Shown: positions 34,888-64,000 of the stretch, one piece after another
Numbering within the stretch: the stretch's first letter is position 1
Layout: the number at the start of each line of letters is the position of its first letter
Translations under genes and position numbers: made by a program
The notes under the pieces: model-generated
Database searches by the model: none
The model's input: the letters and a program-made list of their open reading frames with translations, nothing else
What the model was told of the DNA's origin: nothing
NCBI GenBank assembly: GCA_049604415.1
Contig: JBMYTN010000006.1
Coordinates: 65,107-129,106, forward strand
Reading direction: 5' to 3'
Source of the DNA: Rhodospirillaceae bacterium
GTDB taxonomy: Bacteria > Pseudomonadota > Alphaproteobacteria > Rhodospirillales > Rhodospirillaceae
DNA length: 64,000 nucleotides

Positions 34888-34979
34888 ATGTCCACTGGTC
34901 CTATATTCTGTCTGTGGTGTTATGGCCTGGGTGCGGCCATTGTTCCAGCTTTGGGTTAGACAATCGACACAGAGGCATT

Positions 34980-36627: not shown

Positions 36628-38397
36628 TCAAGCGGCGCTATCTGTGGCAACTTGTTCAGGCGTTTTGCTCTGCCCTGGTGGCAGATCTTTGACCAGGCGG
36701 CGCAGTTGTTGGGTTGTGGCCCGGATCTGTGCGGCTTTTTTGGTTTCCGGAATTTCTTCCTCGCCATTGTTTTCATACCCCGCAGGCAGGATCATCTCGC
36801 CGGTGATCTCACCTTGGACGCTTTCGATATCGAAATCCGTCGGCTTCATATTGCCCGACTGGATCACCATGTTGGACCAGCCGTAGAGCCAAATTGAAAA
36901 CAGCTTCCCGACATTCTGGATCCGTTTGCGCCGAGACAGCAGCAACAGCAACCCCTTGGTTACAAAATAGACCCGCATCGGATGGAGCAAAAACCGTCCC
37001 ATGCGCAGACTTAAGGATGCCAGAACCAAGCGGTTGCGGATCACATTGCGCAGCAATTCGGCCAAGCTGCCATAGCCCGCCCCTTCCTGGGCGATGAAAT
37101 TGCCGGTTTCTAAATTTTCCACATAGTTCCGCAGCCGTCGATATTGGTGCCGTCCATCTGCGGATGACTTCATAAAATGCACATAGCCCTTAATCAGGGT
37201 TTCTGTCGGCAGCAAATAGCGGATGTTGGTCTGGAATTTGAAGCGACCGATATGGGCTGCTAAGGGGCGCAAGCGACCGCTCAGCTTCATCCGGCGATAG
37301 AGCGGTGTGCCGGGCAAAGCGACCAGCAGGCCGGGGTTGGAGGTCAGCAAGCAGGACTCTTCCATGCCCTCCAGGGATTTGTCGAAGATTTCCGGCGTGT
37401 CGGAATCAAAGCCGAAGATCAGCCCTGGGGTCACGATGAAGCCATAAGATTGAATTTGACGCAGCGCCTCAGGCAGATCGAACTTCTTCGAGCGGTTTTG
37501 TACCTTGCTCATTTCCAGCAAGGTGTTGGTGTCGAAGGACTCCACACCGATGAACAGAACATCGAACCCAGCCTGGCGCAGCTTGACCATCAAGGCCGGG
37601 TCTTGGGCCAGATTGATGGTCAGCCAAGTGAAAAAGCTGGGTCGGTGACCGGTGCGCTCGCGCCATTCGATCATCTTGTCGGCCACTTCATGGGCCCAGC
37701 GGGGCTCGCCAATGAAGTTATCGCAACACAACATGAAGGACTTCACGCCCAAATTGGCTAGGCGATCCAAATCCTCAATGATCACATCGGGGTCTTTGTT
37801 GTGGGCCCGATTGTTGTCGGTCAAGATCCGGATATCGCAGAATTCGCATAGGAACGGACAGCCTCGGGAGACTTCCAACAGGGTGCCGTAATAGTGGTGG
37901 ACGTATTTTTTCAACAGCGCTTGGTCCATGGGCATGGAGCCGCCCATGTTGAAGCGTTGCGGGGCGCGAATGACACGGTCTTCTTCAGATTTGCCACGCA
38001 CCGCATCCAGCAAGCGGTTGATGATCAGCTCGCCATCGCCAATGCAGATGTAATCGAAAGGGGTGAATTCGTTCAGCCAACCAGCTTGGTCAAAGGACCA
38101 TGTGATCGGGCCGCCAATGGCGAATTTGGCTTTCGGATAGCGGGCTTTCAGGCGCTCTGCCACCCCGCGCATATAGTCCAGATCCTGGTTTAGCGCGCTA
38201 AACAAAAAAGCGTCCGCTTCACCAATCTCATCTTCAGAGCAGATGCGGGTGTCAAACAGATCATAGGTTATGGAGGCGCGGTCTTCTATGAACGGCGCGA
38301 TCACCATCGCCCAGAGCGGGGTATAGGCATTGCCGAAATTCTGCCTTGCCTGATAGACCGGATCGGGCGCGTGAATAAAGTGGACGCGGTAAGACAT
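36628..38397 (-). CDS. B12-binding domain radical SAM protein (class B radical SAM family)
   Basis: N-terminal Rossmann-like cobalamin-binding region (FAIGGPITW), radical SAM cluster motif CPFLCEFC (CxxxCxxC), C-terminal extension. Start chosen at MSYRVHF, which has a better Shine-Dalgarno than the 38445 start. Confidence 0.8.
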   Translation of the reverse strand: MSYRVHFIHAPDPVYQARQNFGNAYTPLWAMVIAPFIEDRASITYDLFDTRICSEDEIGEADAFLFSALNQDLDYMRGVAERLKARYPKAKFAIGGPITWSFDQAGWLNEFTPFDYICIGDGELIINRLLDAVRGKSEEDRVIRAPQRFNMGGSMPMDQALLKKYVHHYYGTLLEVSRGCPFLCEFCDIRILTDNNRAHNKDPDVIIEDLDRLANLGVKSFMLCCDNFIGEPRWAHEVADKMIEWRERTGHRPSFFTWLTINLAQDPALMVKLRQAGFDVLFIGVESFDTNTLLEMSKVQNRSKKFDLPEALRQIQSYGFIVTPGLIFGFDSDTPEIFDKSLEGMEESCLLTSNPGLLVALPGTPLYRRMKLSGRLRPLAAHIGRFKFQTNIRYLLPTETLIKGYVHFMKSSADGRHQYRRLRNYVENLETGNFIAQEGAGYGSLAELLRNVIRNRLVLASLSLRMGRFLLHPMRVYFVTKGLLLLLSRRKRIQNVGKLFSIWLYGWSNMVIQSGNMKPTDFDIESVQGEITGEMILPAGYENNGEEEIPETKKAAQIRATTQQLRRLVKDLPPGQSKTPEQVATDSAA

Positions 38398-38540
38398 TCT
38401 GTTTGCCCCGCCAAGCTGTTCCAGTTGGGACTGATCACTCCGCATTCTGCGAAGCCTATATTAGAATGCCAATTGGTTAATTTCTTTTTAAGACGCAAGC
38501 CAATTCGGTCTCAAAGGTCGGGTTTTCGTCAACTGGCGCA

Positions 38541-51091: not shown

Positions 51092-52012
51092 GTGTTATTC
51101 CAGGACCACCACCTTTGTGGACTGCATCTAGGGGCCTCCTGTCCCCTGCCGGACCTGCCGGTTGCCCAGGGCATGGCCGGGCAGGACCCCGAGATCACGC
51201 TCCTGGTGGAGGCTCTGGCCCCCATATTGCCCGAGGCGACCCATCGGGCACCGCTGTTTCAATTAAGGGGGCTCGAGGATTGCTTGTTCGACCTGCCCGG
51301 CCTCGGTCGGGCCTTGATCAGCCGTGGCAATCGGGTGGTCCTCGACCCCTTGGTCACCCTGCCGGAGGTCCTGTCGTCGTTCTGGGATGTGGTCTTGCCG
51401 CTTCTGAGCCTGCAAAGGGGCTGGGTGCCGTTTCGCGCCAGTGCTGTTGTTGGACCTGCCGGAGCGGTCTTGATCGTGGGGCATTCCGGGTCCGGCAAAT
51501 CCGTCGCGGCCGCACAACTGCTTAGTGGCGGGTTTTCTTGCGCTGGGGATGGCGTTGTGCCGGTGGACCTGTCCGGATCGGTGCCCATGTTGCGCCCGAC
51601 ATCCGGAACGCTTCGGCTTTGGCCAGCAATGGCCGACCTCTTCACCGGACAGGCGGAAACCCATTCGGACCATTCCGGTCGGGTGTGCATGCCAACAGCA
51701 TTGCCGCAGACCGCGCCCATACCCGTGCGGGGGATTGTGCGGCTCAGGGTCAGGGCCGGAGGGATTGAGATGGGGAGCCAGGATGAAACCGGGGTCGATG
51801 CTTTGGCCTTGGTCCAGGAGGCGGTCGCGGCCCAGGCCGTCGCCCGGTTGACGGGCCAATTGAGCAAGATTTTTGCCGCCAACGCCACCATGGTGCAGAC
51901 GGTTCCTTGTGTCACTTTGGTGCGGGATACGGTGATAGGGTCTTTGCCCGCATGGCAAGCCCTGTTGGAACGCTCAGTGCGGCATCTCTTGGGGCAGGAG
52001 GGGCAGCCATGA
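51092..52012 (+). CDS. HPr-kinase-C-domain-like (HprK-related) kinase, lasso-peptide-cluster type
   Basis: AVLIVGHSGSGKSVAAAQLLSGGFSCAGDGVV matches the HprK P-loop/C-domain pattern. Stop overlaps the sulfotransferase start (ATGA). Start could instead be 51170. Confidence 0.65.
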   Translation: MLFQDHHLCGLHLGASCPLPDLPVAQGMAGQDPEITLLVEALAPILPEATHRAPLFQLRGLEDCLFDLPGLGRALISRGNRVVLDPLVTLPEVLSSFWDVVLPLLSLQRGWVPFRASAVVGPAGAVLIVGHSGSGKSVAAAQLLSGGFSCAGDGVVPVDLSGSVPMLRPTSGTLRLWPAMADLFTGQAETHSDHSGRVCMPTALPQTAPIPVRGIVRLRVRAGGIEMGSQDETGVDALALVQEAVAAQAVARLTGQLSKIFAANATMVQTVPCVTLVRDTVIGSLPAWQALLERSVRHLLGQEGQP

Positions 52013-52854
52013 CCGCCCGGATCGTTTGGCTCGCCTCCTATCCCAAATCCGGCAATACCTGGCTGCGGTTCTTGCTCGACAGTCTGCTGCGCGGTGGGGC
52101 ACCGGTAGACATCAATCATGTCCGCCTGCCCGAGGCCCATGCCGCCAACCGGCATTTGTTCCGCAGCATTCTTGATGTGGAGGCCAGCAGTTTCGATCCC
52201 ACGACCGCCGATACCCTTCGACCCGTGCTCTATCGGCACTGGGTGAAGGACCGCCAAGGGCTGCTGTTTAGCAAAACCCATGATCGCTATCGCCGGGTCG
52301 CCGATGGATCGCCCTTGTTTCCGGCAGACATTTCCCATGGGGTTATCCATTTGATCCGAGATCCCCGGGATGTCGCTGTCTCCTTATCCCACCAGTTGGG
52401 GTTAGACCTTGGTCGGGCTGCGGACTGGGTTTGCTCCCGGCCATTGGAGCGGATCGGTCCTTCCCATGACATTTTATACGCCCAATTGCCGGAGGTGATC
52501 GGCGACTGGGCCGGGCACAGCGAAAGCTGGCGCGAGACCCCACTGCCTCGGCTGGTGGTGCGCTATGAGGATTTGGTCACCGACCCTCGGGCATCTCTTG
52601 GGGCCGTGGCCGGTTTTCTCCAGCTATCCCCATCGCGCGACATACTGGACGCTGCGATTGGGCAGTGCCGTCTGGAACGCTTGCAGGCCCAGGAACAAGG
52701 GGATGGATTTCGCGAGGCGTCCGGCGTGCGGTTTTTTCGCAGCGGACGTATTGGCCAGGGACGCGTGACCCTTTCGGCGCAGCACTTGACCCGTATTGAG
52801 GCCTGTCTTGGCCCCGAGATGGCCTGCCATGGCTATGAGGGTTCTGGAGACTGA
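52009..52854 (+). CDS. sulfotransferase family protein
   Basis: PAPS 5'-phosphosulfate-binding motif SYPKSGNTWLR, 3'-phosphate region RDPRDVAVS. Confidence 0.75.
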   Translation: MTARIVWLASYPKSGNTWLRFLLDSLLRGGAPVDINHVRLPEAHAANRHLFRSILDVEASSFDPTTADTLRPVLYRHWVKDRQGLLFSKTHDRYRRVADGSPLFPADISHGVIHLIRDPRDVAVSLSHQLGLDLGRAADWVCSRPLERIGPSHDILYAQLPEVIGDWAGHSESWRETPLPRLVVRYEDLVTDPRASLGAVAGFLQLSPSRDILDAAIGQCRLERLQAQEQGDGFREASGVRFFRSGRIGQGRVTLSAQHLTRIEACLGPEMACHGYEGSGD

Positions 52855-52958
52855 ATTTCCCCATAGGGTGAGTAATAATTTTGACAATCGCATATATCGT
52901 TTTTTATACAATAGGGATAATAAACCCACTTATTGAGATCATAAATAGGACGCTGCCC
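52855..52958 (+). promoter_or_regulatory. AT-rich putative promoter region for the lasso precursor gene
   Basis: 104-bp markedly AT-rich segment (TTGACAATCGCATATATCGTTTTTTATACAATAGGGATAATAAA) immediately upstream of the precursor ORF, in an otherwise GC-rich context. Confidence 0.35.
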
Positions 52959-53120
52959 ATGACTGACCATTCTGATCATCGTGAGTTGGCCGCCGATGCG
53001 GCTCAAACCGGTCAAAAGCAAGCTTGGTCCAAACCCTGCCTGAATGTCTTGGATATCTCCGAGACGTCAGGGGGGACCGCGCTGGATACCTCGGAAACAG
53101 CCTTTACCCGAGCATCCTAA
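52959..53120 (+). CDS. lasso peptide precursor (A gene), 53 aa; predicted leader MTDHSDHRELAADAAQTGQKQAWSKPCLNVLDISETS and core GGTALDTSETAFTRAS
   Basis: Small ORF immediately 5' of the Asn-synthetase-like cyclase. Leader has a WxxPxL motif and Thr at position -2. Core starts with Gly and has Glu at position 9 (9-membered ring possible; Asp6 is too short). Ser/Thr-rich core with a C-terminal Ser. Confidence 0.55.
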   Translation: MTDHSDHRELAADAAQTGQKQAWSKPCLNVLDISETSGGTALDTSETAFTRAS

Positions 53121-55046
53121 ATGGTCGCATTGGCCGGGGTGGTGGCCGAGGAAGATCGGCCCCCCTTCGCGCCTTTGCAAACACAGTTCAACGCCTCACC
53201 AACCCTCACCTGGGCTTGTTGTCCTGGGGCCTCTGCACAGTGCGTTATGGGAACCCTTCTTGCGAATGGCTCGCCAGAGCCGGTGGGACGGAGCATGGCA
53301 CATCATGCCCCCACCGGTGTCATGGTGGTGGCCGATGCTTGGTTACCCCCAGATCCTCATTGCCGAGTCCATGGGGCAGCGGAGCGGGTCGCCCAGCTTT
53401 ATCTTGCCCATGGTTCGGATGCGTTTGAGCGCTTGGAAGGCGAGTTTGCCATTGCGCTTTGGGATCCTCGGACCCGGTGCTTGCTGTTGCTCCGGGATGG
53501 TTTTGGCTGTCGACCGCTCTATTACCGGCTTTGGCCCGATGGTCGTTTGGCCTTCAGCAGCTTGATCGCACCGTTGATCGGTTTTGAGGAGGCGGCTCCG
53601 GGGGTCAATCCGGATTGGATTGCTGACTACCTGACCCGCAGCGAAAGCGATCCGGAGATCACGCCCTATCTGGGCGTCTCCCGCCTGCCCCCAGGACATC
53701 TGCTGACATGGCACGCGGGCAGGCTGTTCACGCGCCGGGTCTTCTACTTTGACCCTCCGGACCCGCTCGACTGGTCCGCAGCCCGCATCCAAGACGCTTT
53801 TGCCGCCCATCTGGAGCGGGCCGTCAGAGACCGCTTAACCCCAGGGATCCAATCTTTCGGGGCTGAACTCAGCGGCGGTCTGGACAGCAGCGCCGTGGTT
53901 AGCATCGCCGCTGCAGGGCTGCCCGTTGGGACGCTGTCCTCCCCGCTGCGGACCTATTGCCACGGCCTAAGCCCACAGGAGCGCGGCACGGTCTGGCCGT
54001 TTGAAGACGAAACCGCCCATGCGGCTTTGGTGGCGAACCATCTTGGGCTGACAGAGACCCATCACATCGTTCCGTCCCAGGGGCATAGTTTTTTGGACCA
54101 TGCGGATCGCATCCAAGCGGTTCATGGCGGGCCCTTGGTCGATGGGTTCGCCTGCCATTCCGATCCGGTGCTGCGACAGGCCCAAGCCGATGGCGTTGGG
54201 GTGATGCTCTCCGGTCAAGGCGGCGATCAATATGCCTCCGCGCCCTGCGGCATGGTGATTGGCGAATATGCCCAATCCCGGGCGTGGCGGGCGCTCTGGC
54301 GGGAATGTCGCGCTGCGGGGCAGGCCAGAGCTCCCGGGGCGCATGAAGCGTCCTGGCGTACCTTTCTCCGGGCAAGCCTTCGGGCGGAATTCGGTGCCCT
54401 CTATGGCTGGCTGCGCCCTAGGGCGGACCACGTGCCGTTTGGCCAGGAGGTTTTGGCGTCTCTGACGGTGCCGCAGTCGTTTTATCAGGAGATGGATTTG
54501 GCGGGGCGGGTTGATCGCGCCAGCCAGCAAGGGCGGTTTCGCAGCGTTGCGGCCCAGCAAGCCAGCTGGGTCGGGCAAGCCCCCTTTAGCCTTCGTTTGG
54601 AAAGCTCCTGGGTCGCCGGTTTTGTCCATGGCGTGACCTATCGCTACCCGTTGTTGGATTTGGCCTTGGTCCGCTTTGTGCTGTCGATCCCGGTGCAGCA
54701 CAGAGTGTTTCGTGGTCAAGGCCGGTTGCTGATGCATCGATTTCTCCAAAAGCGCCTTCCGGCCTCCATCGCTTGGCGGCGGGACAAGGCCCAGACCGCT
54801 TTGCCCGGCGTTGCCGCTCGCATGCGCCGCGCCATGCCCGTTTTACGCCAGCGCCTTGAGGAGATCCAAAGCGGTCCCCTCGCGGCGTCTTACATCGATT
54901 TTGCCGCGCTGTTTGCGCAGATGGCGCGATTGGGCGAGGGGGAGACGGCGTTGGATCAACCGGTCGACCGGGCGGCTCTGATCAATCTGCAGCGGGTGGT
55001 GATGTTGGGTTTGTTTTTGCAGCAGCAGGAGAAGAGGGGGCCATGA
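53121..55046 (+). CDS. lasso peptide isopeptide-bond-forming cyclase (asparagine synthetase-like, C protein)
   Basis: AsnB-like N-domain remnants (FAIALWDPRTRCLLLLRDGFGCRPLYY) and PP-loop ATP pyrophosphatase motif SGGLDSS. ATG directly follows the precursor stop. Stop overlaps the PqqD start. Confidence 0.75.
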   Translation: MVALAGVVAEEDRPPFAPLQTQFNASPTLTWACCPGASAQCVMGTLLANGSPEPVGRSMAHHAPTGVMVVADAWLPPDPHCRVHGAAERVAQLYLAHGSDAFERLEGEFAIALWDPRTRCLLLLRDGFGCRPLYYRLWPDGRLAFSSLIAPLIGFEEAAPGVNPDWIADYLTRSESDPEITPYLGVSRLPPGHLLTWHAGRLFTRRVFYFDPPDPLDWSAARIQDAFAAHLERAVRDRLTPGIQSFGAELSGGLDSSAVVSIAAAGLPVGTLSSPLRTYCHGLSPQERGTVWPFEDETAHAALVANHLGLTETHHIVPSQGHSFLDHADRIQAVHGGPLVDGFACHSDPVLRQAQADGVGVMLSGQGGDQYASAPCGMVIGEYAQSRAWRALWRECRAAGQARAPGAHEASWRTFLRASLRAEFGALYGWLRPRADHVPFGQEVLASLTVPQSFYQEMDLAGRVDRASQQGRFRSVAAQQASWVGQAPFSLRLESSWVAGFVHGVTYRYPLLDLALVRFVLSIPVQHRVFRGQGRLLMHRFLQKRLPASIAWRRDKAQTALPGVAARMRRAMPVLRQRLEEIQSGPLAASYIDFAALFAQMARLGEGETALDQPVDRAALINLQRVVMLGLFLQQQEKRGP

Positions 55047-55330
55047 CCATCACCCTAACGTCGACGGTTCGAAAGTCAGAAGGTCCGGTCGAGGCCTCCA
55101 TGGATGGGCGCACGGTCATGCTGAACATGGCCTCGGGCAAATATTTTGGCTTGGATGATATCGGGACCGATGTCTGGTCCCGGTTGGAAGGCTCGGTTGC
55201 GGTGATGGCTCTGGTGGATGCCTTGGAGGCCCTCTATGACGCGCCCAGGGCGACCTTGGAAGCCGACGTGTTGGAGTTTTTGCGCGCCCTGGAAACGGAA
55301 GGGCTGGTCGAAGCCGTGCCAAGCGCCTAA
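55043..55330 (+). CDS. PqqD-family RiPP recognition element (lasso B1 protein)
   Basis: 95 aa. Pattern DGRTVMLNMASGKYFGLDDIGTDVWSRL...LVDAL...DVLEFLRALETEGLV is typical of PqqD/RRE. Confidence 0.7.
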   Translation: MTITLTSTVRKSEGPVEASMDGRTVMLNMASGKYFGLDDIGTDVWSRLEGSVAVMALVDALEALYDAPRATLEADVLEFLRALETEGLVEAVPSA

Positions 55331-55369: not shown

Positions 55370-55981
55370 ATGGCACCGACGGTCGTGGTTTTTGACATTG
55401 GCGGAGTCCTGGTGGATTGGAACCCGAACCACCTTTATCGCAAGCTGATCCCGTCGGATGCCGAGCGCGAAGCCTTCCTGCGCGACATTTGCTCCCCGGC
55501 CTGGAACCACCAATTCGATGCGGGAGTGTCCTTCACCGCTGGTGTGGATGCGCTCTCGGCCCAGCATCCCGACAAAGCCGATTTGATTGCCGCCTATCGC
55601 GACCGCTGGGTCGAAATGCTGGAGGGCTCGTTCGAAGACACGGTCCGTCTGCTCCGGCGTTTGCAGGCTGCCGGTGTGCCGCTGCATGCCATCACCAATT
55701 GGTCGATGGAGACCTTCCCCATCGCCCAGCAGCGCTTTGACTTTTTGCAAGGCTTCGATGTCCTGGTGGTTTCCGGGGCGGAAAACATGGCCAAGCCCGA
55801 CCCGGCGATTTTCCGCCTGTTCCTAGAGCGGGCTGGGGAGACGGCGCAGAACTGCCTGTTCATTGATGACAATGCAGCCAATATCGAAAGCGCTTCGGCG
55901 CTCGGCTTCCACACCCATCATTTCAAACAGGCTGCGGCCCTTGAGGCGGATCTTTTGGCCTATGGCCTGCTCAAGGCCTGA
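55370..55981 (+). CDS. HAD-superfamily hydrolase (subfamily IA-like)
   Basis: Motif I VVFDIGGVL (DxG), motif III region K, motif IV FIDDNAANIESA. Confidence 0.75.
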   Translation: MAPTVVVFDIGGVLVDWNPNHLYRKLIPSDAEREAFLRDICSPAWNHQFDAGVSFTAGVDALSAQHPDKADLIAAYRDRWVEMLEGSFEDTVRLLRRLQAAGVPLHAITNWSMETFPIAQQRFDFLQGFDVLVVSGAENMAKPDPAIFRLFLERAGETAQNCLFIDDNAANIESASALGFHTHHFKQAAALEADLLAYGLLKA

Positions 55982-56113
55982 CATCCAAGGTCCGCTTTCC
56001 GATAACGGCTTTTGTTTTGAAGGGCCTTTCAGTATAACAGCCCCCTTCCCAAAACGGGCCGAAACAGACCCACGCGCGCAGCCGCCTGCGCGCCCCTTCT
56101 CAGAGTGAATTCC

Positions 56114-58714
56114 ATGAAAGACTTCCCGCAGAAATACAAAGCCAGCGCCGTCGAGGACGAGGTCAAAGCCTTCTGGGGAAGCAGCGATGTGTATACCTGG
56201 GATCCGGAGCTGCCGTCCGAGACCAATTACGTCATTGATACCCCGCCGCCGACCGTGTCGGGCACCTTGCATGTGGGTCATGTCTACTCCTACACCCAGG
56301 CCGACATCGTGGCGCGCTATTTCCGGATGCGCGGGCGCAATGTGCTCTATCCCATCGGCTGGGACGACAATGGCCTGCCCACCGAACGGCTGGTGGAAAA
56401 GGTCCGCAAGGTCCGGGGTGGGGCCATGGGCCGGGAAGAGTTCATTGCCATCTGCAATGATGTGATCCCGAAATATGAGGAACAGTTCCGCGATCTGTTT
56501 TCGACCCTGGCGCTCAGCGTTGATTGGAGCCGGGAATACCAGACCATCAGCCCGGAAAGCCGGGCGATCTCGCAATTGTCCTTCATCGATCTCTATGAAA
56601 AAGGCCTGATCGAACAGCGCCTGGAGCCGTCCCTGTGGGATCCGGCGGACCGCACCGCCATCGCCCAGGCCGAGATGGAAGAAATGGAGCGCGACAGCTT
56701 CATGAACACCATCACCTTTGCCATTGAGGGCGAGGGGGAGGGCGGAGCCGGGATCCAGATTGCCACCACCCGGCCCGAGCTGATCGCTGGCTGCGGCGCG
56801 GTGATGATCCACCCGGAACATCCCCGGGCGGCTGAGCTGTTGGGCCGCAATGCGGTGACCCCGCTTTATGGGGTGCCCGTGCCCTTCATCGCCGATGAGC
56901 ATGTGGACCCGGAAAAGGGCACCGGCATGGTGATGTGCTGTACCTTCGGGGATGTCACCGACATCCAATGGTACAAGACCCATGGATTGCCGCTGCGCGT
57001 CGTGATCGACAATGCGGGCAAGATGAAATCCGATCTTCCCATTGGCAGCGATCCGGCTTGGCCGTCCGTGGATGCGGCCCAGGCCCAAGCCACCGTAGAG
57101 GCCCTGCAGGGCAAGAAGGTCAATGAAGCCCGCAAGCTGATCCTAGAGCAACTCCAGGAGGCCGGGGTGCTCAACGGTCAGGAAAAGATCCGCCAGGTGG
57201 TGCCGGTGGCCGAACGCTCCGGCGCGCCGCTGGAGATCATCGTCACCCCGCAATGGTTCATCCGCACCCTGGAATACCGCGACCAGATCCTGGCCAAGGG
57301 TCAGGAGATCACCTGGCATCCCGAATACATGTTCAACCGCTTTGAAACTTGGGTCCAAGGCCTGAAATGGGATTGGTGCATTTCCCGCCAACGCCATTTC
57401 GGCGTGCCGATCCCGGTGTGGATTTCCCAGCGCGCGGGCGAGGAAGGCAAGGTGCTGCTGCCCGCCGCCGATGCTCTGCCGGTTGATCCGCTGGTGGATC
57501 TGCCCGAGGGCTATAGCCGCGATGAAGTTGAGCCGGTCAAGGATGTGATGGACACTTGGGCGACCTCGTCCCTGACGCCCCAGCTGACCACCCGCTCCAT
57601 CACCCCGGAGCGCGGCTATGACCTTGCCGCCCATGAGCGGCTGTTCCCGTCCTCCATGCGGCCCCAGGCCCATGAAATCATCCGGACTTGGGCCTTCTAC
57701 ACCATCGTCAAAGCACTCCATCACCAGAATGATGTGCCCTGGCGGGACATCTGTATCTCCGGCTGGTGCTTGGCCTCCGATGGCTCGAAAATGTCCAAAT
57801 CCAAGGGCAACATCATCGATCCGCTGCGGCTGATTGCCGATAATGGGGTTGATCCGGTGCGCTATTGGACCGGCACTTCGCGTTTGGGCAATGACACTGC
57901 CCTGTCGCCCAACACTCTGAAGCAGGGGCGACGTCTGGTGACCAAGCTGTGGAATGCCGCCCGGCTGGCCCATATGTCCTTGGGCGGCAGCGCGCCGCAA
58001 GGAACCTTGGAAGAAGCCCTGCAGAGCAAAGACATCAGCCATCCGATTGATCTCTGGCTGATTGGCGAGCTGGCCCGCACCGCTTCCGAAGCCACCGAGG
58101 CCTTTGATCGCTATGAATATGCCCAGGCCCTGAAGGGCATCGAAACCTTCTTCTGGAGCGTGTTCTGCGACAATTATCTGGAGCTGGTGAAATGGCGCAC
58201 CGGGCCGGAGAGTGCGGCTTCAGAAGCCGATCAGGCCTCCGCCCGCACCACCTTGTATTTCGCCACCACCGCCGTGTTGCGGCTGTTTGCGCCCTTCGTG
58301 CCCTATGTCACCGAGAAGGTCTATGACCTGTTCGTCAATGAAGAGGGCGGGGAGCGGGCTTCTGTTCATGCCCGGGGTGCCTGGCCGGAATTTGACGCCG
58401 CAGCCCTGCCGCCAGCCTGTCCGTTCGCCGACGCTTTGCTGGACGTGATGACCGCCGTGCGCAAGATCAAATCGGATCTGGGTGTTTCGATCAAAACCCC
58501 GCTGGGCGCGGTGCATGTCACCCCGGATCCGGAGGCCGGATCGCCGGTGGATTTGGCAGCCCTAGAGCCGGTGCTGGAAGATCTGCGTCGGGTGTTGAAT
58601 GTGGAAGCGATTGTGTTCACCGCCGCCCAGGGCAATGCCGATGATCTTGTCGCCGCCTCGTCCGGTGGGTTGACCGCTACGGCGCAAAAGCCCGCCGAAG
58701 CTCCGGCGGACTGA
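56114..58714 (+). CDS. valS: class I aminoacyl-tRNA ligase of the Val/Ile/Leu subgroup, most consistent with valine--tRNA ligase
   Basis: PPPTVSGTLHVGH (HIGH region, ValRS-like PPP), KMSKSKGN. About 866 aa. GWDDNGLPTE after HIGH is somewhat IleRS-like, so specificity is not fully certain. Confidence 0.55.
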   Translation: MKDFPQKYKASAVEDEVKAFWGSSDVYTWDPELPSETNYVIDTPPPTVSGTLHVGHVYSYTQADIVARYFRMRGRNVLYPIGWDDNGLPTERLVEKVRKVRGGAMGREEFIAICNDVIPKYEEQFRDLFSTLALSVDWSREYQTISPESRAISQLSFIDLYEKGLIEQRLEPSLWDPADRTAIAQAEMEEMERDSFMNTITFAIEGEGEGGAGIQIATTRPELIAGCGAVMIHPEHPRAAELLGRNAVTPLYGVPVPFIADEHVDPEKGTGMVMCCTFGDVTDIQWYKTHGLPLRVVIDNAGKMKSDLPIGSDPAWPSVDAAQAQATVEALQGKKVNEARKLILEQLQEAGVLNGQEKIRQVVPVAERSGAPLEIIVTPQWFIRTLEYRDQILAKGQEITWHPEYMFNRFETWVQGLKWDWCISRQRHFGVPIPVWISQRAGEEGKVLLPAADALPVDPLVDLPEGYSRDEVEPVKDVMDTWATSSLTPQLTTRSITPERGYDLAAHERLFPSSMRPQAHEIIRTWAFYTIVKALHHQNDVPWRDICISGWCLASDGSKMSKSKGNIIDPLRLIADNGVDPVRYWTGTSRLGNDTALSPNTLKQGRRLVTKLWNAARLAHMSLGGSAPQGTLEEALQSKDISHPIDLWLIGELARTASEATEAFDRYEYAQALKGIETFFWSVFCDNYLELVKWRTGPESAASEADQASARTTLYFATTAVLRLFAPFVPYVTEKVYDLFVNEEGGERASVHARGAWPEFDAAALPPACPFADALLDVMTAVRKIKSDLGVSIKTPLGAVHVTPDPEAGSPVDLAALEPVLEDLRRVLNVEAIVFTAAQGNADDLVAASSGGLTATAQKPAEAPAD

Positions 58715-58750: not shown

Positions 58751-58793
58751 AGGCCGTAAACTCAAAAACGTCCCGTTTATGAGTTTACGGCCT
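58751..58793. repeat. 43-bp palindromic intergenic element, copy 3 (near-perfect palindrome); overlaps the stop codon of the convergent ABC ATPase gene
   Basis: AGGCCGTAAACTCAAAAACGTCCCGTTTATGAGTTTACGGCCT. Confidence 0.65.
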
Positions 58794-59580
58794 ACGCCTC
58801 TCCATGGAGCAGGGCGTGGTAATGGTTGAACGCCCCTTCCACATCGCCGAAATGCACCATTCTGCCTTTGTGCAGCAGCATGGCTTTGTTGCACCAGCGA
58901 CGGATGATGTTGTCATCATGGCTGGCAACAACGACGATCCCGGCGCTGGTCATGAAGCTTTCAAAGCGCTCTGAGGCCTTTTCCATAAAGGCCGCATCTC
59001 CGGCCCCAATGGCCTCATCCATGATCAGGATGTCCGGGCGCACGGAGGTCGCCATGCCGAAGGCCAGGCGCACCAGCATGCCTTGGGAATAGGTCCGGAT
59101 CGGCATTTCCAGATATTCGCCCAGCTCGGTGAACTCGGCCATTTCCCGGATCAGGGAATCTGCTTCCTGCTCACGCAACCCCATCAGCAGGGCGCGGGTT
59201 TTCACCGCCGCCAGCCCGCTTGCATTGGGGTCATAGCCTTCCATCAGGTCGAACACCGGGGTCAAAGAGCCTTCGACGGTCAGATGGCCTCCGGTGGGTT
59301 CATAGATCCCGGCGAGCATTTTCAGCATGGTGCTTTTGCCCGCCCCATTATGGCCGATAATGCCCAGGCGGTCGCCATTGACCAGCTCGAAATTGATGTC
59401 ATCCAGCGCCTTAATGACCACCCGGTTGCCGCCTTGCTTGGTGATGGTGCCACCAACCATTTTGGCTTGGCCGGAAAACACCGACTTCATCGGATTGATC
59501 AGAACCGCATGCCGCAGGGAGCGGTTTTGGTCATAAATCGGGAAGTCGACGACGATGTCTTCAGCTTTGATATACGCCAT
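58792..59580 (-). CDS. ABC transporter ATP-binding protein, KpsT/Wzt/TagH-like (polysaccharide-type exporter)
   Basis: Walker A GIIGHNGAGKSTMLKMLAG, signature YSQGMLVRLAFG, Walker B ILIMDEAIGAGD. Start at MAYIKAEDI; the ORF is open to 59601. Confidence 0.75.
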   Translation of the reverse strand: MAYIKAEDIVVDFPIYDQNRSLRHAVLINPMKSVFSGQAKMVGGTITKQGGNRVVIKALDDINFELVNGDRLGIIGHNGAGKSTMLKMLAGIYEPTGGHLTVEGSLTPVFDLMEGYDPNASGLAAVKTRALLMGLREQEADSLIREMAEFTELGEYLEMPIRTYSQGMLVRLAFGMATSVRPDILIMDEAIGAGDAAFMEKASERFESFMTSAGIVVVASHDDNIIRRWCNKAMLLHKGRMVHFGDVEGAFNHYHALLHGEA

Positions 59581-59591
59581 GGGGGCGGCCT

Positions 59592-60431
59592 TCAGATCCA
59601 ATAGGTGATGCGGGCGCGGAACTTGGAAAAGAACACCAAGGCCGCAAGCGAGCCGACCACCGCAGCAATGGTGCAGACCAGGTAGTTCAGCATGGAGGCC
59701 GGTTCACCCATCAAAGGCGAGCGCACGACTTCCATCAAATGGGTCAGCGGATTGAAGTTCAGGAAATAGGCATGCTCGCCCAACTGCTCCGGATAATAAA
59801 TCACCGGGGTCAGCCAGAAGGCGGCGTTGATCAGATTGGTCACAATCATCGGCACATCCCGGAAGCGGACCGCCAGGATCGCCAGGATGGTCAACAGCCA
59901 AGTGCAATTGATCACCAGCAAGAAGATCCCAACCAGCAGCAGGGCCAAGCCGCTGAAAATATCCAGGGTGCCGCCAATGCCGGGCAAGGTGCCGTAAATC
60001 ATCCCGATGACAATGTAGATCGGCGACACATGCAGCCAGATCACGATGGTTCGCCACATCGCCAGCAGCACATAGAGGAACCGGGGTCGGTTATGCGAGG
60101 TCAGATGGCTGTGAGAACTGATAAAGATCATCACCGCTTCGGTGGCGACCGTGGTGATCAGGTTCCAAACCAGCAGGGAGGCGCTGAGATAGGGCAAATA
60201 GCGCGGCAGGGGCAGGTTGAACATGATCCCAACCAAGACCCCCATGGTCAGGATGGTCACCAGCATGCTGGCGGTGAGCCAGAACGGACCCAGGGTCGAG
60301 CGGCTGTAGCGTTGCTTCAGCTCCAGCATGGTCAGATGATGCCAGACGAACCATTGCTGAAAGGCGGCCTGGATGTCGCGCACCGCAAGGGTGAGGGATG
60401 ACGGAGGCTGGGACATGAGAAACACGCTCAC
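59592..60431 (-). CDS. ABC-2 type transporter permease (KpsM/Wzm-like)
   Basis: 279 aa, 6 TM, ABC-2 family pattern, immediately upstream of the ATPase. Confidence 0.7.
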   Translation of the reverse strand: MSVFLMSQPPSSLTLAVRDIQAAFQQWFVWHHLTMLELKQRYSRSTLGPFWLTASMLVTILTMGVLVGIMFNLPLPRYLPYLSASLLVWNLITTVATEAVMIFISSHSHLTSHNRPRFLYVLLAMWRTIVIWLHVSPIYIVIGMIYGTLPGIGGTLDIFSGLALLLVGIFLLVINCTWLLTILAILAVRFRDVPMIVTNLINAAFWLTPVIYYPEQLGEHAYFLNFNPLTHLMEVVRSPLMGEPASMLNYLVCTIAAVVGSLAALVFFSKFRARITYWI

Positions 60432-62290: not shown

Positions 62291-64000
62291 TTATCCCATG
62301 GAGAGCAACGCCGTGTTGCCCCCTGCGGCGGTGACATCGACGCAGAGATGACGTTCCAGCAGGCAATAATGTTCCGGATCGCCTTCGGTGACCAAGGGCA
62401 AGATGGGGCCGGAGCGGGCGGCCAAAGCTTGGCGTAGGCTTTGCGCCTCCGCAGAATTGCCCCACCAGACCACACCGCCAAACCCGTTCAGCCTGTCCAG
62501 CGCCTCGGCCGGTAGACCCTCCGGCAGCGCGATGGCGCGACCACCGGCGGCGATAATCTTTTGCCGTTGGGACTCGGCGGCCTCGGCCCCGGGACCTAAG
62601 CATAAGAAGGGATCGCGGGCATAGGTCGACAGGCGGTTGGACTCCCCGGTCGGACCGGGCATGTCCTGGGTCGACAGGGCGGTGGTGGCTTGATGGCCCA
62701 AATAGGTTAAGGCGTTTTGCAGCTGGTCCAGATCTGGGCTTGGCGTCGGAGTCACCGCGCTTGGCGCCTTGGCGGGGCCTTGCCCCTCTGCCGGGCTGGG
62801 GCCTTGGGTGAAGCGCAGCAAATATTGCGGACCTCCGGCTTTGGGGCCGGTGCCGGACAGGCCTTCGCCGCCAAAGGGCTGGGAGCCGACAATGGCTCCG
62901 ATCTGATTGCGGTTCACATAGAGATTGCCGACCTTAAGGCTGGCACTGACCTGCTCGACCCGCTGATCGATCCGGCTGTGCAACCCAAAGGTCAGGCCAA
63001 AGCCGCTGGCATTGATGTCCTGGAGGATCTTTGGCAGATCCTGGGCCGCATAGGGCACCAAATGCAGAACCGGGCCAAACACCTCCCGCTCCAATGCACC
63101 GATGCCGCTGGTTTTCAGGACGGTCGGGCCAACAAAGCAGCCGCGTTGCGGGGCTGCGATCTGATGCAACACCGCGCCTTGGGCTTTGAAGGTTTTGATA
63201 TGGGCTTCGATGCCTGCTCGGGCCTCGGCATCGATCACCGGTCCGATGTCAGTGTGCAGATCCCAGGGATCGCCGAGGACCAACCGGTCCATGGCCCCGC
63301 GCAGCATGTCCAGGAAGGGCTCGGCAATGTCCTCCTGGACATAGAGCACCCGCAAGGCCGAACAGCGCTGACCAGCCGATTGGAAGGCTGAGGCGATGAC
63401 ATCTTTGATCGCCTGCTCCGGCAGCGCGGTGGAATCCACGACCATGGCATTCAGGCCGCCGGTTTCGGCGATCAGCGGCGCGGCGGCGTTGCCAGTTGCC
63501 GCCATGGCCCGGTGAATGGCCTGGGCCGTGTCGGTGGAGCCGGTGAAGCACACCCCGGCCAGGCGCGGATCACCCACCAGGGCCGCGCCAAGGGTCGCGC
63601 CATCGCCGGGCAGCAGTTGCAGCACCGCACGCGGGACCCCGGCTTGGTGCAACAATTGGGTGGCCAGGAAGGCCGTGGCTGGGGTCTGCTCTGCCGGTTT
63701 GGCGATCACCCCATTCCCGCTGGCCAGGGCTGCCGCGATCTGGCCGGTGAAGATCGCCAGCGGAAAGTTCCAAGGCGAGATACAGGCAAACAGACCCCGG
63801 GCCGGACGCTGCGCCAAGGCCGGAGCGCCCTGGGCATAATAGCGCAGGAAATCTACCGCTTCGCGTAGCTCGGCATTGGCATCAGCTTGGGTTTTGCCGG
63901 CCTCCCGGGCGAGGAGGGCAAAGAAGGCTCCGAAATTTTGCTCATAAAGATCTGCCGCATTGCGCAGGATCGCTGACCGTGTCTCGGTGGGACAGTCCTG
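62291..64000 (-). CDS. putA: bifunctional proline dehydrogenase / L-glutamate gamma-semialdehyde dehydrogenase PutA, C-terminal part (5' end beyond the window)
   Basis: ALDH-domain blocks EAVDFLRYYA, ISPWNFPLAIF, IAETGGLNA (catalytic Cys region) and the PutA C-terminal domain. The reading frame is open upstream of the listed TTG to the window end. Confidence 0.8.
   Translation of the reverse strand, partial: QDCPTETRSAILRNAADLYEQNFGAFFALLAREAGKTQADANAELREAVDFLRYYAQGAPALAQRPARGLFACISPWNFPLAIFTGQIAAALASGNGVIAKPAEQTPATAFLATQLLHQAGVPRAVLQLLPGDGATLGAALVGDPRLAGVCFTGSTDTAQAIHRAMAATGNAAAPLIAETGGLNAMVVDSTALPEQAIKDVIASAFQSAGQRCSALRVLYVQEDIAEPFLDMLRGAMDRLVLGDPWDLHTDIGPVIDAEARAGIEAHIKTFKAQGAVLHQIAAPQRGCFVGPTVLKTSGIGALEREVFGPVLHLVPYAAQDLPKILQDINASGFGLTFGLHSRIDQRVEQVSASLKVGNLYVNRNQIGAIVGSQPFGGEGLSGTGPKAGGPQYLLRFTQGPSPAEGQGPAKAPSAVTPTPSPDLDQLQNALTYLGHQATTALSTQDMPGPTGESNRLSTYARDPFLCLGPGAEAAESQRQKIIAAGGRAIALPEGLPAEALDRLNGFGGVVWWGNSAEAQSLRQALAARSGPILPLVTEGDPEHYCLLERHLCVDVTAAGGNTALLSMG

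What the first reader, a model, noticed from the sequence alone, without database searches (positions are those of the whole stretch)
52959..53120. Predicted lasso precursor: leader with WxxPxL...T(-2) motif and a Ser/Thr-rich 16-aa core GGTALDTSETAFTRAS ending in Ser
Translation of the small ORF gives MTDHSDHRELAADAAQTGQKQAWSKPCLNVLDISETS / GGTALDTSETAFTRAS.

Thr at -2, Gly1 and Glu9 fit the lasso rules: Gly1-Glu9 gives a 9-membered macrolactam, whereas Asp6 is too short. The tail would be only 7 residues, which is short for a stable threaded fold.

The C-terminal Ser is the residue phosphorylated by HprK-like kinases in paeninodin-type systems. Five other Ser/Thr residues are candidate sulfation sites.

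A 104-bp AT-rich island directly upstream looks like a dedicated promoter.
Basis: seen in the sequence. Interest (0 to 1): 0.6.

Follow-up and report, generated by a model that had tools for sequence, protein, structure and literature searches.

The report
Lasso-peptide precursor gene, leader protease missing
The small gene is real and most likely encodes the precursor of a knotted "lasso" peptide of the kinase- and sulfotransferase-linked type, but the protease that normally removes the leader is absent from all 64 kb.

Summary
The ORF at 52959-53120 translates exactly as written, has an AGGA ribosome-binding site, and follows a 104-bp gap of 35% GC.

It lies in a tight five-gene operon:
- HprK-like kinase (K)
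- sulfotransferase (S)
- precursor (A)
- Asn-synthetase-like cyclase (C)
- PqqD-type leader-binding protein (B1)

I compared it with 40 putative precursors from kinase+sulfotransferase lasso loci in metagenomes. The peptide is typical of them: WxxPxL leader, Thr(-2) 13 residues after the Trp, Gly1, Glu9, a 16-aa core and a C-terminal Ser. The 7-residue tail is ordinary for this family.

- No B2 leader protease exists anywhere in the window. It is also absent from two independent public assemblies that span the operon.
- The kinase carries R-K-D-G where the family has the catalytic H-K-D-D, so phosphorylation cannot be assumed.
- The promoter is unproven.

This cluster type has been noticed since 2014 but never characterised, and I found no report of a sulfated lasso peptide. 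Lasso formation without the B proteins has a published precedent (pseudomycoidin).

Verdict: a genuine, sequence-orphan member of a known kind with an unusual protease-less layout. Moderate interest.

The parts
51173..52012 (+). K: HprK-like kinase homologue (279 aa) with a non-canonical catalytic tetrad R88-K109-D126-G127
   Evidence: Pfam Hpr_kinase_C gives only a weak match (E 0.0085). phmmer against 1.8 billion representatives finds 3458 relatives of about 300 aa, aligned over the full length, best E 7.5e-21. The family profile hits HPr kinase/phosphorylase 1JB1 at E 6.8e-9 and maps the LHASAV / GKS / ADD motifs. The same 279-aa gene is called in public locus L007.
52009..52854 (+). S: PAPS-type sulfotransferase (281 aa); its ATG overlaps the K stop codon (ATGA)
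   Evidence: PF00685 at E 6.4e-19. It is 35% identical (E 4e-45) to the sulfotransferase of a Bacteroidales lasso cluster, L006. The PKSGNTW and RDPRDVAVS motifs and His91 are conserved. The best solved relatives are StaL, Teg12 and Teg14.
52855..52958 (.). AT-rich intergenic gap: TTGACA at 52881-52886, TATACA 18 nt further on, AGGA at 52947-52950
   Evidence: GC is 34.6%, in the lowest 0.3% of 104-nt windows. The sequence was read. The promoter scan found no site that meets its criteria. A weak direct repeat ATAGGG..TAA lies at 52863 and 52911.
52959..53069 (+). A, leader part (37 aa) with the WSKPCL binding motif and Thr at -2
   Evidence: NF033524 (paeninodin-family lasso peptide) matches residues 20-39 at E 2.4e-4 and 20.8 bits, below the 27-bit cut-off.
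53070..53120 (+). A, core part GGTALDTSETAFTRAS plus the stop codon; predicted Gly1-Glu9 macrolactam with tail TAFTRAS
   Evidence: Predicted masses are given.
53121..55046 (+). C: Asn-synthetase-like lasso cyclase (641 aa); its ATG follows the precursor stop codon directly
   Evidence: PF00733 at E 2.7e-35. NF033535 (lasso cyclase) scores 198 bits against 154 bits for the asparagine synthase model; both are below their cut-offs. The N-terminus MVALAG lacks the Cys2 glutaminase nucleophile, as in lasso-linked relatives, whereas relatives from polysaccharide loci start MCG. The SGGLDS ATP-binding loop is present. The best relatives are only 27-31% identical.
55043..55330 (+). B1: PqqD-type RiPP recognition element (95 aa); its ATG overlaps the C stop codon
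   Evidence: PF05402 scores 68 bits, above its cut-off. NF033536 scores 70.6 bits against a cut-off of 80. Solved relatives: TbiB1 5V1U at E 1.4e-14 and the lasso PqqD chaperone 9X90 at E 8e-11.

Best explanation
The ORF is the precursor gene (A) of a class II lasso peptide of the paeninodin-like group. That group is defined by a WxxP leader, a C-terminal Ser and an HprK-type kinase. Here the gene sits in a compact 4.2-kb operon, K-S-A-C-B1, in a Rhodospirillaceae genome.

Proposed mechanism. Every step below is inferred by homology; none is shown.
1. B1 binds the WSKPCL motif of the leader.
2. The linear precursor may be modified at or near its C-terminal Ser by K, and by the PAPS-dependent sulfotransferase S.
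3. The leader is removed after Ser37 (Thr at -2). The protease is not encoded in the operon or anywhere in the 64 kb. It could be a B2 elsewhere in the genome or a host protease.
4. C adenylates the Glu9 side chain and joins it to the Gly1 amine, giving a 9-residue ring.
5. The 7-residue tail TAFTRAS is held in the ring by Phe12/Arg14 and/or by the C-terminal modification.
For: - Gene and context: the ORF has a ribosome-binding site and is translationally coupled to C. The junctions K/S and C/B1 overlap as ATGA, and A/C abut as TAA-ATG.
- Family identities of K, S, C and B1 are supported.
- Closest relatives of C that sit in lasso contexts: L004 and L005 (A-B1-B2-C-K) and L006 (B2, B1, S, K, C). 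L006's precursor ...KPWEKPKIKTVHFNDTA/GGNPYAVGESIAYDS has the same GG start, Glu9 and Ser end.
- The sulfotransferase subfamily is strongly linked to this system. Of 80 metagenomic loci, 56 carry K, usually just upstream of S as here, and 33 carry C+K+S.
- The peptide matches the consensus of 40 putative precursors from those loci in every scored feature.
- The composite motif is unique in the window, with 0.03 expected by chance.
- Literature: Trp in WxxP is nearly invariant in paeninodin-like precursors (PMC13381572). HprK homologues phosphorylate the C-terminal Ser of linear precursors (PMC8498205, PMC9266682). Pseudomycoidin forms without B1/B2, and a C+A+K cluster with no B genes was noted in Stanieria (PMC6993621).
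Against: - No B2 is detectable. tblastn with 3 B2 proteins gave only E > 0.7. A 3-sequence HMM and then a 30-sequence iterated HMM, run over all six frames, gave a best E of 0.69. The operon leaves no room for such a gene; its only gaps are 104 and 39 bp.
- No dedicated ABC exporter is present. The ABC-2 pair 3.7 kb downstream is not conserved in related loci.
- K has Arg for the His and Gly for the second Asp of the H-K-D-D tetrad, which is reported to be essential (PMC9266682). HKDD occurs in 49 of 55 sulfotransferase-linked kinases, and RKDG only here.
- The precursor, cyclase and B1 all score below NCBIfam's curated cut-offs for the lasso-specific models.
- There is no close homologue of A, C or K in 5.8 billion proteins, so conservation of this exact layout cannot be shown.
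- No expression or product data exist.
Confidence: 0.65

Rival explanations
1. The operon is a decaying or crippled remnant of a kinase+sulfotransferase lasso cluster. It has lost its leader protease and exporter, so the precursor is made but never matured, or is not made at all.
For: - B2 and a dedicated transporter are absent.
- Two of the four catalytic kinase residues are replaced.
- In one related B2-less locus (L020), a transposase fragment sits where B2 would be expected.
- The proteins are sequence orphans.
Against: - All five reading frames are intact and tightly coupled.
- The precursor keeps every family-defining position.
- The PAPS-binding motifs and catalytic His of S, and the ATP loop of C, are intact.
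- The His-to-Arg change is shared with the nearest kinase relative, L040 (RKDD). The R-K-D-G combination recurs in three other family representatives. That pattern looks like a sub-lineage rather than random decay.
- 13 of 33 C+K+S loci also show no B2 on the stretch of contig retrieved (up to 8 kb either side).
Confidence: 0.2
2. The product is not a lasso but a linear, leader-bearing or otherwise processed phospho/sulfo-peptide. This would resemble the linear polyphosphorylated peptides that use an RRE and an HprK kinase without a B2 protease.
For: - The LPP family (RRE + HprK + signal-peptidase-like protease, with no cyclase) is documented (PMC13381572).
- Loci L035 and L058 carry B1+K+S with neither C nor B2 within about 7 kb.
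- L013 has B1, an ABC transporter, K and S beside a proteasome-like gene, and no C.
Against: - A cyclase gene is present and coupled to the precursor.
- The core has the ring-forming Gly1/Glu9 geometry.
- B1 resembles lasso RREs (TbiB1 at E 1.4e-14, 9X90 at E 8e-11) far more than the other PqqD-family chain, 9X8Z (E 0.03).
- LPP leaders use YxxP, whereas this one uses WxxP (PMC13381572).
Confidence: 0.1
3. The ORF is a chance open frame in an intergenic region and encodes nothing.
For: It is short (53 codons), carries only a 'hypothetical protein' label in public annotation, and has no homologue by sequence search.
Against: - The composite motif is expected 0.03 times per window and is found only here.
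- The ORF lies exactly between the tailoring genes and the cyclase.
- A ribosome-binding site is present.
- It gives a partial match to the paeninodin-family model.
- It fits the 40 putative family precursors.
Confidence: 0.03

Closest known systems
Paeninodin / pseudomycoidin-type lasso peptide clusters (Paenibacillus dendritiformis pade, Bacillus pseudomycoides psm)
   Same: - WxxP leader motif, Thr(-2) and a 9-residue ring formed from residue 1 to an acidic residue at position 9.
- C-terminal Ser.
- An HprK-like kinase gene next to the precursor.
- A separate B1 recognition protein and an Asn-synthetase-like cyclase.
- The precursor gives a partial hit to NCBIfam's paeninodin-family model (PMC6993621, PMC13381572).
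   Different: - No B2 protease, no ABC exporter and no NTP-transferase.
- A sulfotransferase is present.
- The host is an alphaproteobacterium, not a Bacillota member.
- The kinase tetrad is R-K-D-G.
- The core is shorter: 16 aa, against the 23-aa paeninodin core that I recall (my own knowledge, not checked here).
- Sequence identity to any relative is at most about 30-45%.
Kinase+sulfotransferase lasso clusters, known only from genome mining (noted in PMC4289311 in 2014 and by Zhu et al. 2016 as cited in PMC8498205; examples here are L006 and L012-L091)
   Same: - A K-S gene pair in the same order and overlapping.
- The same sulfotransferase subfamily, with the IVWLASYPKSGNTW N-terminus.
- The same precursor architecture.
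- The L006 core GGNPYAVGESIAYDS closely parallels GGTALDTSETAFTRAS.
   Different: - 20 of 33 complete-looking loci have B2 and 11 have the NTP-transferase; this one has neither.
- The gene order K-S-A-C-B1 was not seen in the others.
- No member has been characterised, so the role of the sulfotransferase is unknown for all of them.
B-protein-less lasso cluster of Stanieria cyanosphaera PCC 7437, and leader-peptidase-independent pseudomycoidin synthesis (PMC6993621)
   Same: A cyclase, a precursor and an HprK-type kinase without the canonical leader peptidase. Experiments showed that host proteases plus the cyclase can suffice in this family.
   Different: - The Stanieria cluster lacks B1 as well and carries a glycosyltransferase. 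Here B1 is kept and a sulfotransferase is present.
- I could not retrieve the Stanieria sequences for comparison.
Linear polyphosphorylated peptides (LPP; PMC13381572)
   Same: An RRE plus an HprK-like kinase acting on a Ser of a leader-bearing peptide, with no B2 protease.
   Different: - LPP clusters have no cyclase, use a SipW-like signal peptidase and have YxxP leaders.
- This locus has a cyclase and a WxxP leader, and no signal-peptidase gene was seen among its annotated neighbours.

Membership tests
Lasso peptide biosynthetic gene cluster (canonical A + B/B1B2 + C) | Precursor with a [Y/W]xxPx[L/V/I/F/A] leader motif and Thr at -2 | tested here: met
   WSKPCL is present and Thr36 is at -2. 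The motif definition is taken from PMC13381572. Thr lies 13 residues after the Trp, as in 27 of 41 family peptides.
Lasso peptide biosynthetic gene cluster (canonical A + B/B1B2 + C) | Core starting with a small residue and carrying Asp/Glu at position 7-9 for the macrolactam | tested here: met
   Gly1 and Glu9 are present. Asp6 lies outside the 7-9 range.
Lasso peptide biosynthetic gene cluster (canonical A + B/B1B2 + C) | Asn-synthetase-like macrolactam synthetase (C) next to the precursor | tested here: inconclusive
   - Pfam Asn_synthase is clearly met.
- The lasso-cyclase model NF033535 is the best NCBIfam hit, but at 198 bits against a 525-bit cut-off.
- The protein lacks Cys2, like lasso-linked relatives.
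- Its best-scoring relatives include both lasso-context and polysaccharide-locus enzymes.
Lasso peptide biosynthetic gene cluster (canonical A + B/B1B2 + C) | PqqD-type RRE (B1 or the N-terminal domain of B) | tested here: met
   PF05402 scores 68.1 bits against a cut-off of 23.4. TbiB1 matches at E 1.4e-14. The lasso-specific model NF033536 scores 70.6 bits, just under its cut-off of 80.
Lasso peptide biosynthetic gene cluster (canonical A + B/B1B2 + C) | Transglutaminase-like Cys protease (B2 or the C-terminal domain of B) that removes the leader | tested here: not met
   - tblastn with three B2 proteins found nothing.
- A 3-sequence HMM, a search for the HAW motif, and a 30-sequence iterated HMM over all six frames of the 64 kb gave a best E of 0.69.
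- The public gene calls on an independent assembly show the same genes.
- The rest of the genome could not be searched.
Paeninodin-like (kinase-tailored) lasso peptides | C-terminal Ser on the precursor | tested here: met
   The peptide ends in Ser53/Ser16 followed by a stop codon. 38 of 41 family peptides end in Ser.
Paeninodin-like (kinase-tailored) lasso peptides | HprK-like kinase with the catalytic His-Lys-Asp-Asp residues | tested here: inconclusive
   A homologue is present and full length. It has Arg88 for the His and Gly127 for the second Asp. The Lys and the first Asp are kept. Activity cannot be judged from sequence.
Paeninodin-like (kinase-tailored) lasso peptides | Match to NCBIfam NF033524 (paeninodin-family lasso peptide) above its cut-off | tested here: not met
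   The score is 20.8 bits against a cut-off of 27, at E 2.4e-4, and covers only residues 20-39.
Paeninodin-like (kinase-tailored) lasso peptides | Dedicated ABC exporter (D) | tested here: not met
   The operon has none. The nearest ABC genes (58792-60431, minus strand) lie beyond HAD and ValRS, and their membrane component has no counterpart in 80 related loci.
Linear polyphosphorylated peptides (LPP) | No cyclase; SipW-like leader peptidase; YxxP leader | tested here: not met
   A cyclase is present. The leader has WxxP. None of the Pfam annotations of neighbouring genes is a signal peptidase.

The most novel reading that the evidence does not exclude
This is a naturally B2-independent lasso pathway. 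B1, the cyclase and a housekeeping protease mature the peptide. The conserved kinase-sulfotransferase pair installs a C-terminal anionic lock, phosphate and/or sulfate. That product would be the first sulfated lasso peptide, and it would show that the leader protease is dispensable in a whole branch of the family.
Probability: 0.2. Interest if true: 0.65.

Novelty: new variant of a known kind. Interest (0 to 1): 0.45.

Why it matters
Kinase+sulfotransferase lasso clusters have appeared in genome-mining surveys since 2014, yet what the sulfotransferase does remains unknown. I found no report of a sulfated lasso peptide in the held literature.

This locus is a minimal five-gene version that could be cloned whole, and it bears on two open points:
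- whether the sulfotransferase modifies the peptide, and where;
- whether lasso formation in this branch needs a dedicated leader protease. About a third of related loci also show no B2.

The survey also supplies 40 comparator precursors and a recognisable sulfotransferase signature (IVWLASYPKSGNTW) for finding such clusters. If the cluster proves inactive, the result is simply a correct but ordinary annotation of a hypothetical protein.

Tried and rejected
- Searching representative genomes for relatives of the precursor and of the neighbouring ValRS, to define the insertion site, returned nothing. Both scans are spent, so synteny in related genomes is unknown.
- Kinase alignments were too diverse for the locus-finding tool. 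A two-sequence sulfotransferase alignment worked instead.
I replaced this with local HMM searches over all stop-to-stop segments.
- HAD hydrolase (55370-55981) as part of the system: rejected. It has no counterpart in 80 related loci.
- The downstream ABC-2 transporter as the exporter: not supported. Its membrane component has no counterpart in the 80 loci, and its ATPase gives only generic ABC-ATPase hits in 8 of them.
- ValRS as a self-resistance copy: not supported. Only three sulfotransferase-only loci with no kinase or cyclase carry ValRS-like fragments.
- The sigma-70 promoter and terminator scans gave nothing above chance. Rfam gave nothing.
- An alternative leader protease shared by the B2-less loci: none found. 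L020 has a transposase fragment and a methyltransferase. L051 has HEAT and UbiA genes. L040 has a TPR/2OG oxygenase.
- A clade-level loss of B2 among the closest kinase/B1 relatives could not be established. L040, L074, L030 and L013 are short contigs, and L044 and L037 do have B2.

Full report
**1.

- AGGA lies 8 nt before the ATG.
- The gap between the upstream gene and the ORF (52855-52958, 104 bp) has 34.6% GC in a window that averages 58.9%. Only 0.3% of 104-nt windows are that low.
- I tested a composite motif: [YW]xxPx[LVIFA], then T-x-small residue, then D/E at core position 7-9, then Ser-stop. It occurs once in all six frames of the 64 kb, at this ORF. The expectation is 0.03 per random sequence.
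- The same 53-aa protein is in public data as a 'hypothetical protein' of a Rhodospirillaceae MAG.
- Three other public contigs, from two sequencing runs and another assembly, are 100% identical to the window. Two of them span the operon: a 12-kb contig covers the whole neighbourhood and a 3.3-kb contig covers part of K through most of C. The third (1.7 kb) ends just inside C. The gene layout is therefore not an assembly accident. Because the copies are identical, they give no information on selection.

**2. The surroundings**

The ORF sits in a tightly packed + strand operon:

| Gene | Coordinates | Product |
|---|---|---|
| K | 51173-52012 | HprK-like kinase homologue |
| S | 52009-52854 | sulfotransferase |
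| A | 52959-53120 | precursor |
| C | 53121-55046 | Asn-synthetase-like cyclase |
| B1 | 55043-55330 | PqqD-type recognition element |

- The K/S and C/B1 junctions overlap as ATGA, and the A stop is followed at once by the C start (TAA-ATG).
- The flanks are housekeeping genes. FolD and an FTCD-like gene lie upstream on the other strand. A HAD hydrolase, ValRS, an ABC-2 pair and a GGDEF protein lie downstream.
- The HAD hydrolase and the ABC-2 membrane protein have no counterpart in 80 related loci, and the ABC ATPase gives only generic hits. I do not count them as part of the system.
- The operon's GC (61.8%) matches its flanks.

**3. The proteins**

C (cyclase):
- It hits Pfam Asn_synthase. 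Its best NCBIfam model is the lasso cyclase, although below the curated cut-off.
- It starts MVALAG, without the Cys2 glutaminase nucleophile. Lasso-linked relatives are the same, whereas relatives from polysaccharide loci start MCG.
- It keeps the SGGLDS ATP loop.
- The NCBI record calls it 58 residues shorter. The long form aligns with homologue N-termini.

B1 (recognition element):
- It is a clear PqqD/RRE. Its best solved relatives are lasso proteins: TbiB1 at E 1.4e-14 and a lasso PqqD chaperone, 9X90, at E 8e-11. The other PqqD-family chain, 9X8Z, scores only E 0.03.

S (sulfotransferase):
- It has intact PAPS-binding motifs.
- It is 35% identical over its full length to the sulfotransferase of a Bacteroidales lasso cluster.
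- Its nearest solved relatives are StaL, Teg12 and Teg14, which sulfate phenols on glycopeptide antibiotics.

K (kinase):
- Pfam barely recognises it. A full search finds 3458 relatives of about 300 residues, aligned end to end.
- The family profile matches HPr kinase/phosphorylase. That alignment maps the His-Lys-Asp-Asp residues reported as essential in lasso kinases (PMC9266682).
- This protein has Arg, Lys, Asp, Gly at those positions. Among 151 family representatives, His is present in 133 and Arg in 11; the second Asp is present in 133 and Gly in 7. Three other representatives share R-K-D-G.
- Among 55 kinases linked to this sulfotransferase subfamily, 49 are HKDD. The nearest relative (L040) is RKDD, and RKDG occurs only here.
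- Phosphorylation of Ser16 therefore cannot be taken for granted.

**4. The missing protease**

- A canonical lasso cluster needs a leader peptidase, either B or B2 (PMC13352647).
- None is here. tblastn with three B2 proteins gave nothing. Neither did a three-sequence HMM, a search for the conserved HAW motif, or a 30-sequence iterated B2 HMM run over every stop-to-stop segment of all six frames. The best E was 0.69.
- The operon has no room for such a gene. K, S, C and B1 are each present once in the window.
- The rest of the genome could not be searched.

**5. Related loci**

The closest relatives of A, C and K are distant:
- A has no homologue by sequence search.
- C is 27-31% identical to its best relatives.
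- K is 32-41% identical to its best relatives.

Those relatives of C that lie in lasso contexts show A-B1-B2-C-K-D with an NTP-transferase (L004 Salinarimonas ramus, L005). A Bacteroidales MAG (L006) carries B2, B1, S, K, C and the NTP-transferase. The L006 precursor...KPWEKPKIKTVHFNDTA/GGNPYAVGESIAYDS, parallels this one closely.

Results of the survey:
- 56 of the 80 loci carry K, usually directly upstream of S as here.
- 33 carry C+K+S. Of these, 28 have B1, 20 have B2 and 11 have the NTP-transferase.
- 13 of the 33 show no B2. Most of those are short contigs or have little sequence on one side. L020 and L051 have at least 4 kb of sequence on both sides of the cluster.
- In L020 a transposase fragment sits beside B1.
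- I found no shared alternative protease among the B2-less loci.

**6. The precursor family**

From 56 pattern hits close to cluster genes I picked, by eye, 40 putative precursors. I compared them with the window peptide:

| Feature | Family (including the window peptide where n = 41) | Window peptide |
|---|---|---|
| First motif residue | Trp in 37/41, Tyr in 4 | Trp |
| Thr(-2) position | W+13 in 27, W+14 in 13 | W+13 |
| C-terminal residue | Ser in 38/41 | Ser |
| D/E at core position 7-9 | 37/40 | Glu9 |
| Core length | 13-29 aa, median 17 | 16 |
| Tail length | 4-21 aa, median 8 | 7 |

Further points from the comparison set:
- 16 of 39 comparator cores have no bulky residue after position 9. 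This fits the published idea that C-terminal modifications act as the lock in this family (PMC6993621).
- Only 16 of 39 cores contain Tyr, and this one has none. If the sulfotransferase acts on the peptide, its target is not generally a phenol. The one near-universal feature is the C-terminal Ser, next to which K is known to act.
- Whether S acts at or near that Ser is my inference, not a result.

**7. Literature**

- HprK and sulfotransferase genes in lasso clusters were noted in 2014 (PMC4289311) and again in 2016 (reviewed in PMC8498205).
- HprK homologues phosphorylate, and even polyphosphorylate, the C-terminal Ser of the linear precursor, in Firmicutes and in Sphingobium (PMC9266682).
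- Trp in WxxP is nearly invariant in paeninodin-like precursors (PMC13381572).
- Pseudomycoidin is made in E. coli and B. subtilis without B1/B2. The same paper notes a Stanieria cluster with a cyclase, a precursor and a kinase but no B genes (PMC6993621).
- A related family of linear polyphosphorylated peptides uses an RRE and an HprK with a signal-peptidase-like protease and no cyclase (PMC13381572).
- I found no report of a sulfated lasso peptide. A 2026 review does not mention sulfotransferases.

**8. Most likely mechanism**

- B1 binds WSKPCL.
- K (if active) and S modify the linear precursor.
- The leader is cut after Ser37 by a protease encoded outside the window.
- C joins Gly1 to Glu9.
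- The tail TAFTRAS is trapped by Phe12/Arg14 and/or the C-terminal modification.

Every step is inferred by homology. I rate this reading at 0.65. The rivals are a crippled remnant (0.2), a linear modified peptide (0.1) and a chance ORF (0.03).

**9. The promoter claim**

The AT-rich gap contains a perfect TTGACA (52881-52886). TATACA follows 18 nt later and TACAAT 20 nt later. The scan's criteria are not met, and no terminator separates S from A. A dedicated promoter is plausible but not shown.

**10. Verdict**

It belongs to a widespread but uncharacterised kinase+sulfotransferase lasso group. It is a sequence orphan, and it lacks the defining leader protease and carries an atypical kinase. 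It is a new variant of a known kind and of moderate interest.

Noticed in passing
L001 4723-12060 (also L002, L003; ENA metagenome): A cluster of an S8 subtilase (881 aa, PF00082 at E 1.6e-39), PqqD, an Asn-synthetase-like C, a 58-aa ORF (..YQPPVLKRFGLVRDLTTAGSANDLEMAMMTHQMRRA), an HprK-like kinase and a PrmA-like methyltransferase. It has no B2, and the subtilase sits where a leader protease would be expected.
   Followed up: partly
L011 4849-8830 (Logan SRR28060496): Two tandem pairs of a small ORF followed by an Asn-synthetase-like gene. The small ORFs have WxxPxL leaders and a C-terminal Ser (..RWVTPELLDLSLVSSASLGGQCRTDGGDLDNADIS..HWTRPTLVALAASVNSEGKPTMYCVEGGELGMAYAPS). The stop codon of the first small ORF abuts its C start. 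A Sulfotransfer_4 gene is nearby, and no B1, B2 or K appears on the 9.9 kb seen.
   Followed up: partly
L035, L058 (about 16.8 kb each); L013: B1+K+S modules without a cyclase or B2 within about 7 kb. L013 has a proteasome-subunit-like gene, B1, an ABC transporter, K and S. These may be linear phospho/sulfo-peptide systems.
   Followed up: partly
L073 (13.7 kb metagenome contig): At least six precursor-like ORFs with WxxP leaders, several cyclase and kinase copies and one sulfotransferase, with no B2 detected.
   Followed up: no
window 53121-53294: The NCBI record annotates the cyclase as 583 aa, starting 58 codons downstream (P0002). The 641-aa form starts at the ATG that abuts the precursor stop, matches homologue N-termini, and is the form called in the Logan assembly.
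   Followed up: yes
window 56105-58714: The ValRS next to the operon matches NCBIfam NF009687 (PRK13208 type, 994 bits) much better than PRK05729 (520 bits, below its cut-off). Three sulfotransferase-only metagenomic loci (L062, L071, L080) carry ValRS-like fragments of about 186 aa.
   Followed up: partly
window 62291-63817 (-): An aldehyde-dehydrogenase ORF whose residues 3-338 match only positions 123-457 of the Pfam model. The N-terminal part of the domain is missing from this frame, so the gene may be frameshifted or truncated at the window edge.
   Followed up: no
window 52863-52875 and 52911-52923: A weak 13-nt direct repeat (ATAGGGTGAGTAA / ATAGGGATAATAA), 48 nt apart, inside the AT-rich gap upstream of the precursor.
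   Followed up: no
window 36628-38445 (-): A B12-binding radical SAM protein with DUF4070, beside two large ORFs (33484-34887 on the minus strand, 34914-36545 on the plus strand) that have no Pfam match.
   Followed up: no
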